Shown: positions 7,955 through 8,918 of the stretch, in pieces | Position numbering within the stretch: the stretch's first letter is position 1 | Layout: each line of letters begins with the position of its first letter | IMG/VR virus record: IMGVR_UViG_2513237200_000008 | Strand: one strand, 5' to 3' | Length of the DNA: 49,114 bases | DNA from: a virus | Taxonomy: Duplodnaviria > Heunggongvirae > Uroviricota > Caudoviricetes | Translations under genes and position numbers: made by a program | Notes under the pieces: model-generated | What the model was told of the DNA's origin: nothing | The model's input: only the letters and a program-made list of their open reading frames with translations | Database searches by the model: none

Positions 7955-7963
7955 GGGTAATTT

Positions 7964-8503
7964 ATGAAGAAATTAATTTCATTGCTAATTACATCCACTC
8001 TTTCATTTTCAGTATGCGCTCAAGAAGAAGACAATAATCATACCCGTCTAATAAGAGCTGCCTGCAACGATGATATGCATAAATTACAGCTTCAATATGG
8101 TCGGCGTTTTATATGTCATACTGATAATTTTACTGCCGGAAATATGAATACCGCATACTTATCTGATTCTGTTTATGGGAAATCGAGAATAATGTTAATG
8201 AAATTCGGTAATGTTTATTATGATAATCCCAGCCATCCAACCAATGACACATTACACTATTCCTACAATATACAAGACATGAATACAGCTATTTCTCTAA
8301 TTGTCAATGGAGGCGGTTTAAACGATCAGCAGATAAATTATCAAATTTGTAAAAAAACCATTGCTGATACTAAGGAAAAAATAAAGAAAAACAATAAAGA
8401 TTATCTAGACAAAAAGATAGATCATAAAACTTATGAGATAATGAATTCAGTTTTCAATGACTCGATAAAAAATTTTGAAAAATGTGTGTCTGAAAATAAG
8501 TAG
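7964..8503 (+). CDS. Hypothetical secreted protein (moron), strongly AT-rich
   Basis: 179 aa with an N-terminal signal-peptide-like segment MKKLISLLITSTLSFSVCA; opposite strand to the surrounding tail genes; base composition very different from flanks. Confidence 0.55.
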   Translation: MKKLISLLITSTLSFSVCAQEEDNNHTRLIRAACNDDMHKLQLQYGRRFICHTDNFTAGNMNTAYLSDSVYGKSRIMLMKFGNVYYDNPSHPTNDTLHYSYNIQDMNTAISLIVNGGGLNDQQINYQICKKTIADTKEKIKKNNKDYLDKKIDHKTYEIMNSVFNDSIKNFEKCVSENK

Positions 8504-8531
8504 TTGTTAGACTTTTTTAGACTACATTCTA

Positions 8532-8553
8532 TTTTCGCCAAATTTGGCGAAAA
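8532..8553. repeat. Perfect 22-bp palindrome TTTTCGCCAAATTTGGCGAAAA
   Basis: Read directly; lies between the moron ORF and the antirepressor-like fragment. Confidence 0.5.
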
Positions 8554-8918
8554 CTCCAGGCCGCCGCCGCAAGGACTACCACCTCACCCTGGACACCGCC
8601 AAAGAACTGGCAATGGTCGAGCGCAACGAAAAAGGACGCCAGATCCGCCGATACTTCATCGAGTGCGAGAAGAATCTGCGCGAAGATACCACCAGCACAC
8701 AATCCCCTCTGAATGTTGACATCATCATGCGCGTCAGAAACGGCTCGGTTACCCACATTGAGCACCACAAATCAGGCTCAGTTATCACCACAGAATGGGC
8801 AATTCACTTACTACGCAAAAGTGGATGGATTGTCATGCCACGCGATGAACTTCTTAACACGCCACTGGCCCAACTGATGCCCGAAAATTTGCCTCACACC
8901 GGAACCTGCATCCGGTAA
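8544..8918 (+). pseudogene. Antirepressor-like C-terminal fragment (probable remnant)
   Basis: No ATG start (track uses TTG); segment [31 protein letters not shown] resembles C-terminal regions of phage antirepressor/Rha-like proteins; overlaps the 3' end of a convergent baseplate gene. Confidence 0.35.

What the first reader, a model, noticed from the sequence alone, without database searches (positions are those of the whole stretch)
7955..8918. Moron insertion in the baseplate module: AT-rich secreted protein, 22-bp perfect palindrome and antirepressor remnant
The baseplate gene run is interrupted by about 1 kb on the opposite strand. It contains a very AT-rich ORF with a signal peptide (MKKLISLLITSTLSFSVCA) and no features I recognise, a perfect 22-bp palindrome (TTTTCGCCAAATTTGGCGAAAA, 8532-8553), and a start-less fragment resembling the C-terminus of a phage antirepressor. 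The composition and orientation indicate horizontally acquired cargo; a secreted or periplasmic product could be a host-interaction, superinfection-exclusion or virulence-type factor.
Basis: partly seen in the sequence, partly recalled or inferred. Interest (0 to 1): 0.5.

Follow-up and report, generated by a model that had tools for sequence, protein, structure and literature searches.

The report
Accessory-gene slot in Rac prophage baseplate
A roughly 1-kb stretch that interrupts the baseplate genes of the E. coli W Rac prophage is a swap-in/swap-out accessory slot holding an intact gene for an exported protein of unknown function and a dead antirepressor gene; the "perfect palindrome" is a leftover of a conserved hairpin found inside all antirepressor genes of this type.

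Summary
The window is the complete Rac prophage of E. coli W. Between baseplate J and a 115-aa tail gene lie, on the opposite strand, an AT-rich 179-aa ORF (7964-8503) and an antirepressor (ant) fragment (8516-8918).

In distant relatives the two tail genes abut, so the slot is empty. In E. coli Rac-like phages it holds at least 13 different cargo sets. It is therefore an accessory ("moron") hotspot.

The 179-aa protein has a signal peptide and four conserved cysteines, and dN/dS is 0.1-0.2. It has no sequence or fold relatives outside a tiny family. Members only 33-44% identical sit in the same slot in other Enterobacterales, so it is a long-standing resident. Its function is unknown. Periplasmic superinfection exclusion is my best guess, from analogy only.

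A ~407-bp deletion removed ant's candidate promoter, its C4/Xcc1-type leader RNA, the start codon and 52 codons.

The 22-bp palindrome is inherited ant coding sequence, identical in an intact Stx-phage ant. It is one allele of a stem-loop with compensatory changes across 33 ant alleles. I found no description of this element, and it is the most interesting result here.

The parts
6716..7942 (-). Baseplate J/gp47 gene, the left boundary of the slot. Its ATG lies 21 bp from the cargo ATG, in divergent orientation.
   Evidence: Pfam Baseplate_J E = 7e-8. RefSeq WP_001349878.1. The spacer is 21-27 bp in all lineages.
7943..7963 (+). 21-bp divergent spacer with a Shine-Dalgarno-like AAGGG at 7953-7957. 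It is too short to hold a promoter, so any promoter must lie inside the baseplate J coding sequence.
   Evidence: Sequence. No consensus sigma-70 site upstream. The spacer and first bases are shared with the rac62-type cargo.
7964..8503 (+). Intact 179-aa ORF (WP_000733802.1). It has a Sec-type signal peptide (codons 1-19, VCA|Q). The mature ~160-aa protein has 4 conserved Cys. GC content is 0.31.
   Evidence: dN/dS 0.09-0.20. AlphaFold model pLDDT 84.7. No Pfam, PHROG or PADLOC match. No fold match.
8504..8519 (.). Deletion scar, with the junction at 8515|8516. The left side matches the sequence just after the ORF stop in intact loci, which there is the -35 of a promoter-like site. The right side matches ant codon 53 onward.
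   Evidence: Alignment A1. Stx-phage ant identity starts at 8516. L003 has TTTACA-16-TATGAT at 3114-3141. Intact loci are 407 bp longer.
8516..8918 (+). ant (AntA/AntB antirepressor) pseudogene. Codons ~53-185 are kept. There is an in-frame stop at 8508-8510, and no ATG or ribosome-binding site.
   Evidence: No C4/Xcc1 RNA is left in the window.
8532..8553 (.). Perfect 22-bp palindrome. It is this allele of a conserved stem-loop embedded in the ant coding sequence, and here it encodes F-S-P-N-L-A-K.
   Evidence: Identical in the intact ant of Stx phage TL-2011c. 33 alleles, 32 with a perfect stem of at least 6 bp. 96% of cells paired, 6 of 9 pairs compensatory, 0 of 500 shuffles reach the observed score. 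No T-run follows it, so it is not a terminator.
8894..9241 (-). 115-aa tail-module gene (phrog_7986), the right boundary of the slot. Its last 25 nt overlap the 3' end of ant convergently (8894-8918).
   Evidence: In L063-L066 it ends 2 bp before baseplate J.

Best explanation
The region is the local content of a hypervariable accessory-gene slot that lies between two adjacent baseplate-module genes of Rac-like phages.

Shown:
- The ancestral arrangement is the 115-aa gene directly followed by baseplate J.
- In Enterobacterales Rac-like phages, DNA read on the opposite strand has been placed there and is exchanged freely.
- In E. coli W the slot holds two things.
  (a) An intact, selectively maintained gene for a 179-aa protein. 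The protein has a cleavable signal peptide and four conserved cysteines.
  (b) An antirepressor gene killed by a ~407-bp deletion. The deletion removed its candidate promoter, its leader with a C4/sRNA-Xcc1-type RNA, its ribosome-binding site and its first 52 codons.
- The 22-bp palindrome is a relic. It is the local allele of a stem-loop that all ant genes of this type carry inside their coding sequence.

Inferred:
- The 179-aa protein is exported by Sec, cleaved after Ala19 and folded in the periplasm with two disulfide bonds.
- It is made from the repressed prophage. It is silenced by antisense read-through when the late operon is on.
- It acts in the cell envelope against incoming phages (superinfection exclusion), most plausibly against tails of its own phage type. 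The reason is that the family has stayed attached to this baseplate module while diverging about twice as fast as the neighbouring structural proteins.

I put about 0.9 on 'accessory slot plus dead ant plus relic hairpin'. I put about 0.35 on the exclusion function specifically.
For: - The window is identical to the E. coli W Rac prophage, and RefSeq calls the ant piece a pseudogene.
- The slot is empty in L063-L066 and Kluyvera. There are at least 13 cargo sets among 58 loci with 82-100% identical baseplate J. These include an HsdR_N-domain protein, a YafO toxin pair, a ProQ/FinO protein and several lipoproteins or membrane proteins.
- The 179-aa family has about 10 clusters in 5.8 billion proteins, and 8 representatives in an exhaustive HMMER scan.
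- Six of the seven lineages with usable genomic context place the family in this same slot.
- Identity to the W protein is 33-43%, while baseplate J is 54-70% and the 115-aa protein is 68-82% identical.
- dN/dS is 0.09-0.20. A hydrophobic N-terminus and a 4-Cys pattern are conserved. P0010 is a lipoprotein fusion.
- Deletion anatomy.
- The C4/Xcc1 RNA is present upstream of all 23 intact ant genes checked and is absent from the window.
- Hairpin covariation.
- Precedents for envelope-acting exclusion genes in or beside tail modules are HK97 gp15 (PMC3594210), T4 Spackle (PMC7677548) and T5 Llp (PMC9586334).
Against: - No promoter or terminator for the 179-aa gene was found, so its status as an independent transcription unit and its expression in the lysogen are unproven.
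- There is no sequence, profile or fold similarity to any exclusion, defence or virulence protein. The proposed function rests on analogy and context only.
- One locus with the same deletion has a premature stop at codon 20 of the gene (L008), and two loci hold only remnants of it (L030, L032). The gene is therefore dispensable and sometimes decays.
- The gene is rare. 24 of 5426 complete E. coli genomes hold at least 80% of the region.
Confidence: 0.7

Rival explanations
1. The 179-aa protein is a host-directed lysogenic-conversion factor. It would be a periplasmic protein that changes envelope physiology, stress resistance or colonisation in the way lambda Bor and Lom do, and would not be an anti-phage factor.
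For: It is exported, disulfide-bonded, AT-rich prophage cargo under purifying selection. Morons often encode such factors (PMC3594210). The top, non-significant Foldseek hits are the periplasmic alpha-hairpin of MexA/AcrA adaptors.
Against: The family is tied to one slot of one tail module across genera and is found almost nowhere else. That fits a phage-directed role better than a general host benefit. It has no similarity to known virulence or fitness factors. The MexA match has E about 0.5 over about 60 residues of a generic helical hairpin.
Confidence: 0.2
2. The 179-aa protein works for the phage itself during lytic growth. It could be a periplasmic helper of lysis, tail penetration or progeny protection, for example by masking receptors on debris as T5 Llp does. 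On this view it is a facultative part of the infection machinery and not a lysogen-expressed moron.
For: It has a long-term association with the baseplate module. T5 llp sits next to the receptor-binding gene and is expressed during infection (PMC9586334). No lysogenic promoter was found.
Against: It is on the strand opposite to the late operon, so late transcription runs antisense to it. Most phages with 99% identical baseplate proteins lack it. In other loci it is replaced by unrelated proteins.
Confidence: 0.12
3. The ant remnant is still functional. A 124-aa product would start at the TTG at 8544, or the palindrome would act as an operator or terminator that now regulates the neighbouring genes.
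For: An open frame of 124 codons exists. The palindrome folds into a stable hairpin (z = -3.0). Shorter ant forms are annotated as intact in other loci, such as the 162-aa form in TUM1881.
Against: Two thirds of the AntA domain is missing (Pfam positions 44-68 of 68 remain). There is no ribosome-binding site before the TTG. The candidate promoter, leader and C4/Xcc1 RNA are deleted. RefSeq flags it as a pseudogene. The palindrome has no T-run and is ordinary coding sequence in intact genes.
Confidence: 0.05
4. The 179-aa ORF is a non-functional, decaying leftover, and the region has no current role.
For: The neighbouring gene is dead. One sister locus has a nonsense codon in the ORF (L008). 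No promoter was found.
Against: The ORF is intact in E. coli W. dN/dS is 0.09-0.20 over dS up to 0.7. The cysteines and signal peptide are conserved down to 33% identity. The AlphaFold model is confident.
Confidence: 0.08

Closest known systems
HK97 gp15 moron (the original 'moron', a superinfection-exclusion gene inside the tail operon; PMC3594210)
   Same: Extra DNA between two adjacent tail-module genes. It is absent from relatives, has deviant base composition, and encodes a small envelope-targeted protein.
   Different: gp15 is an inner-membrane protein with its own mapped promoter and terminator, and its exclusion activity has been shown. Here the product is a soluble exported protein with no sequence or fold similarity, no promoter or terminator was found, and the function is untested. 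The slot is also a multi-allele hotspot and not a single insertion.
T4 Spackle (periplasmic inhibitor of the tail lysozyme gp5; PMC7677548)
   Same: A small, signal-peptide-bearing, largely helical periplasmic phage protein. This phage's tail also carries a peptidoglycan-cleaving (SLT) domain protein five genes away. One alternative cargo at the slot has a weak LprI lysozyme-inhibitor match (E = 0.003, below the Pfam cut-off).
   Different: No sequence or fold match was found. Spackle is an early gene of a virulent phage. Inhibition of the SLT protein is pure conjecture here.
T5 Llp and the Cor proteins of phi80/N15/HK022 (receptor-blocking proteins encoded next to tail or receptor-binding genes; PMC9586334 for Llp, Cor from my own knowledge)
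   Same: Exported protein genes embedded in or beside the tail module. Several alternative occupants of this slot are lipoproteins, for example L011 (MKKLISLLISFSVVGC...) and P0010.
   Different: The W protein has no lipobox. Its Cys18 is not conserved and position -1 is Val. There is no homology to Llp or Cor.
P1/P7 immI (c4 antisense RNA - icd - ant) and P22 immI (ant among the late genes)
   Same: In intact relatives, the ant gene lies in the late region under a promoter-proximal structured RNA. That RNA scores as Rfam C4 (RF01695), c4-a1b1 or sRNA-Xcc1.
   Different: In the window the promoter, RNA and 5' third of ant are deleted, so only a pseudogene remains. The protein is AntA/AntB-type, and it is not the P22 or P1 Ant. 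I found no description of the conserved stem-loop inside the coding sequence for those systems in the searched literature or in Rfam.
Accessory and defence hotspots of temperate phages (P2 and P4 hotspots; from my own knowledge)
   Same: A fixed position between conserved genes that holds many alternative cargo sets, including nuclease-like and toxin-antitoxin genes.
   Different: The position is inside a baseplate operon of Rac-like phages. Much of the cargo is envelope proteins plus an anti-immunity gene. None of the cargo matched PADLOC defence models convincingly.

Membership tests
Moron (as defined in PMC3594210) | Extra DNA between two genes that are adjacent in related phages | tested here: met
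   The 115-aa gene and baseplate J are 2 bp apart in L063-L066. They are 587-3135 bp apart in Rac-like E. coli phages.
Moron (as defined in PMC3594210) | Base composition different from the surrounding genes | tested here: met
   GC content is 0.31 against 0.50-0.51 in the flanks. It is 0.33-0.37 against 0.49-0.54 in three distant lineages.
Moron (as defined in PMC3594210) | Own promoter | tested here: inconclusive
   No consensus sigma-70 site was found upstream of 7964. Only 21 bp separate it from the divergent baseplate J start, so any promoter must lie inside that gene. No clearly conserved -10 or -35 was seen across lineages.
Moron (as defined in PMC3594210) | Own terminator | tested here: not met
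   There is no intrinsic-terminator-like site in 7500-9500. The palindrome lacks a T-run. In intact relatives a hairpin plus T-run follows in the ant leader (read from alignment A1), but it is deleted here.
Moron (as defined in PMC3594210) | Expressed from the repressed prophage | not testable with these tools
   Needs strand-specific RNA-seq or a reporter in E. coli W.
Sec-exported (signal peptidase I) periplasmic protein | Basic n-region, hydrophobic h-region, small residues at -3 and -1, conserved across homologues | tested here: met
   The N-terminus is MKK + LISLLITSTLSFS + VCA|Q. The 12-residue Kyte-Doolittle maximum is 1.5-3.2 in 11 family members. This is a heuristic only, because SignalP was not available.
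Bacterial lipoprotein (signal peptidase II) | Lipobox L-[AS]-[GA]-C with an invariant Cys | tested here: not met
   The sequence is F-S-V-C, with Val at position -1. The Cys is replaced by Tyr in P0002 and P0003 and is absent in other homologues.
AntA/AntB antirepressor (Pfam PF08346 plus a C-terminal domain) | Complete N-terminal AntA domain with a start codon | tested here: not met
   Only profile positions 44-68 of 68 remain. Codons 1-52 are missing, and there is an in-frame stop at 8508-8510. RefSeq calls it a pseudogene.
P1/P7-type immI module (c4-like RNA controlling ant) | C4, c4-a1b1 or sRNA-Xcc1 RNA directly upstream of ant | tested here: not met
   Present in 23 of 23 intact relatives. 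There is no hit in window 7000-10000 even at E up to 1. It has been deleted.
Intrinsic (Rho-independent) terminator, considered for the 22-bp palindrome | GC-rich stem followed by a U-run | tested here: not met
   The stem is followed by AAAACTCC on the + strand and by TAGAATG on the - strand. The scan found none.
Known superinfection-exclusion or defence proteins (Spackle, Llp, Cor, gp15, Sie, PADLOC systems) | Sequence, profile or fold similarity | tested here: not met
Known superinfection-exclusion or defence proteins | Blocks infection when expressed | not testable with these tools
   Needs plating, adsorption and DNA-entry assays.

The most novel reading that the evidence does not exclude
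The palindrome is the local copy of an undescribed structured element that lies inside the coding sequence of AntA/AntB-type antirepressor genes.

- It is a 6-14-bp stem with an A-rich loop of about 6 nt, at a fixed codon position.
- It is kept through compensatory base changes while the encoded peptide changes ([40 protein letters not shown] and others).
- It would act as an RNA or single-stranded-DNA signal, for example for processing, pausing, or binding of a protein. It would work together with the C4/Xcc1 leader RNA to control anti-immunity.

A second, weaker novel reading is that the 179-aa family is a new class of periplasmic exclusion protein that co-evolves with its own phage's baseplate.
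Probability: 0.4. Interest if true: 0.6.

Novelty: new member of a known kind. Interest (0 to 1): 0.42.

Why it matters
E. coli W is a widely used industrial and laboratory strain. Knowing that its complete Rac prophage carries a dead anti-immunity gene and one intact exported accessory protein helps in predicting prophage inducibility and phage sensitivity.

More generally, the work defines three things:
- A previously uncharted cargo hotspot inside a baseplate operon. It is a place to look for new exclusion, defence and toxin genes.
- A small orphan family of periplasmic proteins that has stayed with one tail module across genera. This makes it a tractable candidate for a new phage-phage exclusion mechanism.
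- A conserved stem-loop with compensatory changes inside antirepressor coding sequences, next to C4/Xcc1-type RNAs. If functional, it adds a layer to how prophages control the lysis-lysogeny switch, including in Shiga-toxin phages that carry the identical allele.

Tried and rejected
- Terminator reading of the palindrome: rejected. There is no T-run on either strand, and the scan found none.
- Palindrome created by the insertion or deletion: rejected. The junction is at 8515|8516, 16 nt upstream, and the identical 22-mer sits in the intact ant of phage TL-2011c.
- Hairpin explained by the encoded peptide alone: rejected. Synonymous-codon resampling gives a mean best stem of about 4 bp. Stems of at least 9 bp are reached in 0-2% of resamples.
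- Hairpin arms as allele-specific targets of the upstream C4/Xcc1 leader RNA: rejected. The cognate duplex energy is -15.7 against -16.2 kcal/mol for non-cognate pairs, and ranks are spread evenly.
- Rfam family covering the hairpin: none found at E up to 1.
- Remote homology between the two alternative signal-peptide cargo families (179-aa and rac62): rejected, hhalign probability 1%.
- Pfam, PHROGs and PADLOC for the 179-aa protein gave nothing. The DUF7003 match has E = 0.076 and is below the cut-off.
- The first AlphaFold run with 4 close sequences was poor (pLDDT 57). The second run with 8 sequences was good.
- The genome-contig scan for baseplate J gave only one locus, from Kluyvera.
- No promoter for the 179-aa gene was found by consensus scan or by cross-lineage alignment.
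- Literature searches for Rac-SA53 and for a hairpin inside ant genes found nothing relevant.
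Full report
**1. Where the window comes from**

The 1051 bases around the finding are 100% identical to the chromosome of E. coli W and its derivatives. The RefSeq annotation of the whole 49-kb window runs from intR, xisR, ralR, recET, kilR and the RacR-type repressor genes, through lysis, terminase, head and tail genes, to tail fibres. So the window is a complete Rac prophage. The nearest deposited phages are Escherichia phage Rac-SA53 and a near-identical record labelled as an Actinobacillus phage. 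Both are 95% identical over 72-73% of a 4-kb query, and the unmatched part is the region in question.

**2. Checking the observation**

Baseplate J (6716-7942) and a 115-aa gene (8894-9241, phrog_7986) lie on the - strand. Between them, on the + strand, are two features:
- An ORF of 179 codons at 7964-8503.
- A start-less reading frame running to 8918. It matches the end of the Pfam AntA domain (positions 44-68 of 68, E = 5.5e-8) and an anti-repressor PHROG (E = 7e-46). RefSeq marks it as a pseudogene missing its N-terminus.

The ORF has 31% GC, against 50-51% in the flanking genes. TTTTCGCCAAATTTGGCGAAAA at 8532-8553 is a perfect palindrome that occurs once, where 0.01 matches are expected even with three mismatches allowed.

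**3. The slot is an accessory hotspot**

I fetched 59 viral contigs and one Kluyvera chromosome that encode relatives of baseplate J. I then mapped the neighbouring genes on them.

- In the four most distant loci (baseplate J 34-47% identical), the 115-aa gene ends 2 bp before the baseplate J start. The slot is empty there.
- In the E. coli Rac-like phages (baseplate J 82-100% identical), the slot holds 587 to 3135 bp, in at least 13 arrangements:
  - the 179-aa gene with an intact ant, with a truncated ant, or alone;
  - an unrelated 182-aa signal-peptide protein (Rac-SA53 rac62), with or without a third signal-peptide protein (rac61) and ant;
  - a 143-aa lipoprotein that shares the first nine residues with the 179-aa protein;
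  - membrane proteins of 158 and 202 aa;
  - a 248-258-aa secreted protein with a weak LprI match;
  - a 391-aa protein with type I restriction HsdR N-terminal domains, the commonest variant with 22 loci;
  - a pair that includes a YafO-family toxin;
  - a ProQ/FinO protein.

This satisfies the core definition of a moron as given in PMC3594210: extra DNA, absent from relatives, with deviant composition. Only 8 of 58 usable slots hold it, and 24 of 5426 complete E. coli genomes hold at least 80% of the region.

**4. The 179-aa protein**

*How rare the family is.* It has no Pfam, PHROG or PADLOC match. A word-indexed search of 5.8 billion proteins found only relatives at 81% identity or more, plus fragments. 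An exhaustive HMMER search of 1.84 billion cluster representatives found eight. A profile search added one Serratia protein. The family is thus very small.

*What the family shares.* All members have a basic and hydrophobic N-terminus with small residues before the predicted cleavage site (VCA|Q in E. coli W). All have four invariant cysteines in the mature part (C34, C51, C129, C174). One member (P0010) carries the domain behind a lipoprotein signal and an N-terminal extension. Cys18 of the W protein is not conserved and the residue before it is Val, so the W protein is not a lipoprotein.

*Selection.* Pairwise dN/dS among E. coli alleles is 0.09-0.20, with dS up to 0.7. It is therefore a real gene under purifying selection.

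**5. The gene is an old resident of the slot**

The homologues from Serratia quinivorans (43% identical) and from four metagenome or genome lineages (33-37%) lie in exactly the same place. They are divergent from baseplate J with 21-27 bp between the start codons, and are followed either by an antirepressor (of the P22_AR_N type in Serratia), by another lipoprotein, or directly by the 115-aa gene. Only one member, on a 1.5-kb contig, lies elsewhere, next to an Arc-like gene.

In those loci baseplate J is 54-70% identical to the W protein and the 115-aa protein is 68-82% identical. The exported protein therefore diverges about twice as fast as its structural neighbours. It also stays AT-rich (33-37% GC) everywhere. 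So its composition is a persistent property of the gene, and it is not evidence of recent transfer into this genome.

**6. Expression signals**

The 21-bp spacer contains a Shine-Dalgarno-like AAGGG but cannot hold a promoter. A consensus scan of 7500-9500 found no sigma-70-like site upstream of the gene and no intrinsic terminator. An alignment of the upstream region across lineages showed no convincingly conserved -10 or -35 element beyond what baseplate J coding explains.

The spacer and the first bases are shared by loci with different cargo. Any promoter would therefore lie in the 5' end of baseplate J and serve whichever gene is placed there. This is inference. The late operon must read through the slot on the other strand to reach baseplate J, so late transcription is antisense to the cargo. 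That is also inference.

**7. The ant remnant**

I aligned E. coli W with loci that have the same 179-aa gene and an intact 185-aa ant (ETEC4067, 97% identical). W lacks 407 bp.

- *Left edge.* The junction is at window 8515|8516. This falls inside the -35 hexamer of a promoter-like site (TTTACA-16-TATGAT, 10 of 12) that follows the stop codon of the 179-aa gene in the intact locus.
- *Right edge.* The sequence resumes at ant codon 53.
- *What was lost.* The missing stretch also contains a leader with a hairpin plus T-run (read from the alignment) and an 85-nt element that scores as Rfam sRNA-Xcc1 (70-78 bits, gathering score 53). That element ends about 25 nt before the ant start.

All 20 further ant loci sampled have sRNA-Xcc1 or C4 antisense RNA at this position, some with isrK and the c4 a1/b1 target sites. 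These ant genes therefore belong to a P1/P7 immI-type anti-immunity module. The window has none of these RNAs. What remains has an in-frame stop at 8508-8510, no ATG and no ribosome-binding site. It is a pseudogene.

The first 166 nt of the remnant are 94% identical to the ant of many Stx phages, so the lost 5' part was probably of that type. Independent truncations of ant (at codon 26) and loss of ant altogether occur in other loci. This gene is evidently often inactivated in the slot.

**8. The palindrome**

The 22-mer aligns with ant coding sequence. It is present, base for base, in the intact ant of Stx phage TL-2011c, where it encodes F-S-P-N-L-A-K. It is therefore neither a product of the insertion or deletion nor an intergenic site.

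Other ant alleles have, at the same codon position, a different but equally perfect inverted repeat. Examples are:
- CTATTTCCC-aaaaac-GGGAAATAG
- TTGCTTCCC-aaattc-GGGAAGCAA
- TTGCTTTCC-aaaaca-GGAAAGCAA
- TTTGCTCCCC-aaaatg-GGGGAGCAAA
- TTTTTTCCA-attc-TGGAAAAAA
- TTATTATTTCCC-aaaatc-GGGAAATAATAA

Evidence that this is a selected structure:
- With 80 more ant loci I found 33 distinct alleles. 32 have a perfect stem of 6-14 bp, and the remaining one has a 10-bp stem with one mismatch.
- Stems of 9-14 bp occur in the 50-nt hairpin window in 28 of 46 distinct genes. Elsewhere in the same genes the best stem is 4-7 bp in 44 of 46.
- Resampling synonymous codons gives a mean best stem of about 4 bp. 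It reaches stems of at least 9 bp in 0-2% of trials.
- On an axis-centred alignment of 20 alleles, 96% of cells are paired. Six of nine pairs show changes on both sides (28 cells). No shuffle out of 500 reaches the observed pairing or covariation score, and sliding the partner by 1-3 columns drops pairing to 43-64%.

The encoded peptides differ between alleles, so selection acts on the nucleic-acid structure or on a symmetric site.

Limits and open points:
- It is not a terminator.
- It is not covered by any Rfam family.
- Its arms do not pair preferentially with their own leader RNA.
- I found no description of it in the searchable literature.
- Its function is unexplained.
- In E. coli W it is a relic inside a dead gene.

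**9. Most likely mechanism**

*Firm conclusions.*
- The region is accessory cargo in a hotspot.
- The 179-aa gene is intact and maintained.
- ant and its control RNA are dead.
- The palindrome is a relic.

*Inferred.* The product is exported, cleaved and disulfide-bonded in the periplasm.

*Best guess for function (about 0.35): superinfection exclusion at the envelope.* The reasons are:
- Exported location.
- Strict, long-term linkage to one baseplate module.
- Faster divergence than the structural neighbours.
- Replacement in sister phages by other envelope proteins, nuclease-like genes and toxin genes.
- Precedents of envelope-acting exclusion genes in or beside tail modules: HK97 gp15 (PMC3594210), T4 Spackle, which inhibits the tail lysozyme (PMC7677548), and T5 Llp (PMC9586334).

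A Spackle-like inhibition of this phage's SLT-domain tail protein is a concrete, testable version of this idea, but it has no direct support here.

*Rivals.* A host-directed conversion factor (0.2), a lytic-cycle helper (0.12), a decaying gene (0.08) and a still-active ant fragment or palindrome (0.05).

**10. Novelty and verdict**

What is new is the context:
- An uncharted multi-allele hotspot inside a baseplate operon.
- An orphan periplasmic protein family confined to that slot.
- A stem-loop with compensatory changes inside antirepressor coding sequences, next to C4/Xcc1-type RNAs.

I rate the finding as a new member of a known kind, of moderate interest. The ant hairpin is the part most worth following up.

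Noticed in passing
window 8532-8553; also L002, L003, L005, L012, L019, L059, L120, L135 and others, 25-45 nt upstream of the K-D-Y-H-L-T-L-D codons of ant: A stem-loop of 6-14 bp with an A-rich loop is conserved at one codon position inside AntA/AntB antirepressor genes. It shows compensatory changes on both sides in 6 of 9 pairs, while the encoded peptides differ. It is not in Rfam, it is not a terminator, and it was not found in the searched literature. Its function is unknown.
   Followed up: yes
L003 3259-3343, L002 3459-3542, L005 1220-1305, and 20 further ant loci (L076-L145) about 25-40 nt before the ant ATG: Every intact ant gene checked is preceded by an element that scores either as sRNA-Xcc1 (RF02221) or as C4 antisense RNA (RF01695, sometimes with isrK and c4-a1b1). 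The two Rfam models are both 87 nt and occupy the same position, so they may describe one RNA class of immI-type ant control.
   Followed up: partly
window 9249-9428 (-) and 9515-9721 (-), within the unannotated stretch 9242-9937: Two tandem paralogous small ORFs share a motif (...PNWKFLLIW...) that looks like a transmembrane segment, and both match phrog_6632. They lie in an AT-rich (GC 0.34-0.39) segment between the 115-aa gene and the baseplate protein gene. RefSeq annotates nothing there, and Rac-SA53 has a single 45-aa copy. This may be a second variable spot in the module.
   Followed up: no
L021 3785-4960 (+) and 21 similar loci: The commonest occupant of the slot in IMG/VR Rac-like phages is a 391-aa protein with type I restriction HsdR N-terminal nuclease-like domains (Pfam E = 6e-14). 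It is co-oriented with the tail genes and has no ant beside it. It is a possible defence or anti-defence gene, and PADLOC found nothing.
   Followed up: partly
L030 3419-4409 (+), L054: Another slot variant carries a 190-aa protein followed by a 138-aa YafO-family toxin (Pfam E = 2e-16), together with remnants of the 179-aa gene. L054 additionally has a ProQ/FinO-family protein next to ant.
   Followed up: partly
L011 4548-4979 (-): A 143-aa lipoprotein (MKKLISLLISFSVVGC...) shares its first nine residues with the 179-aa protein and is otherwise unrelated. This suggests that cargo exchange recombines within the signal-peptide coding region, which would keep the same translation start and any upstream promoter.
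   Followed up: no
L153 123-731 (+): The 202-aa family member P0008 lies on a 1.5-kb metagenome contig next to an Arc/ribbon-helix-helix gene and not next to baseplate J. It is the only case found outside the slot.
   Followed up: no
L008 (IMG/VR UViG_2563366953), the 179-aa gene at locus 4979-4443 (-): A second locus with the same ant deletion as E. coli W has a CAA-to-TAA nonsense change at codon 20 of the 179-aa gene. Both cargo genes are dead there.
   Followed up: partly
hit H2 (PP818812.1): A record labelled Actinobacillus pleuropneumoniae phage vB_Apl-pPE4 is 95% identical at the DNA level to this E. coli Rac-type tail module. The host assignment looks doubtful.
   Followed up: no
hits H31 and H40: Two assemblies labelled E. 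coli DH5alpha carry this W-type Rac region at 100% identity. K-12 Rac lacks the structural genes, so these strains may be mislabelled W derivatives.
   Followed up: no
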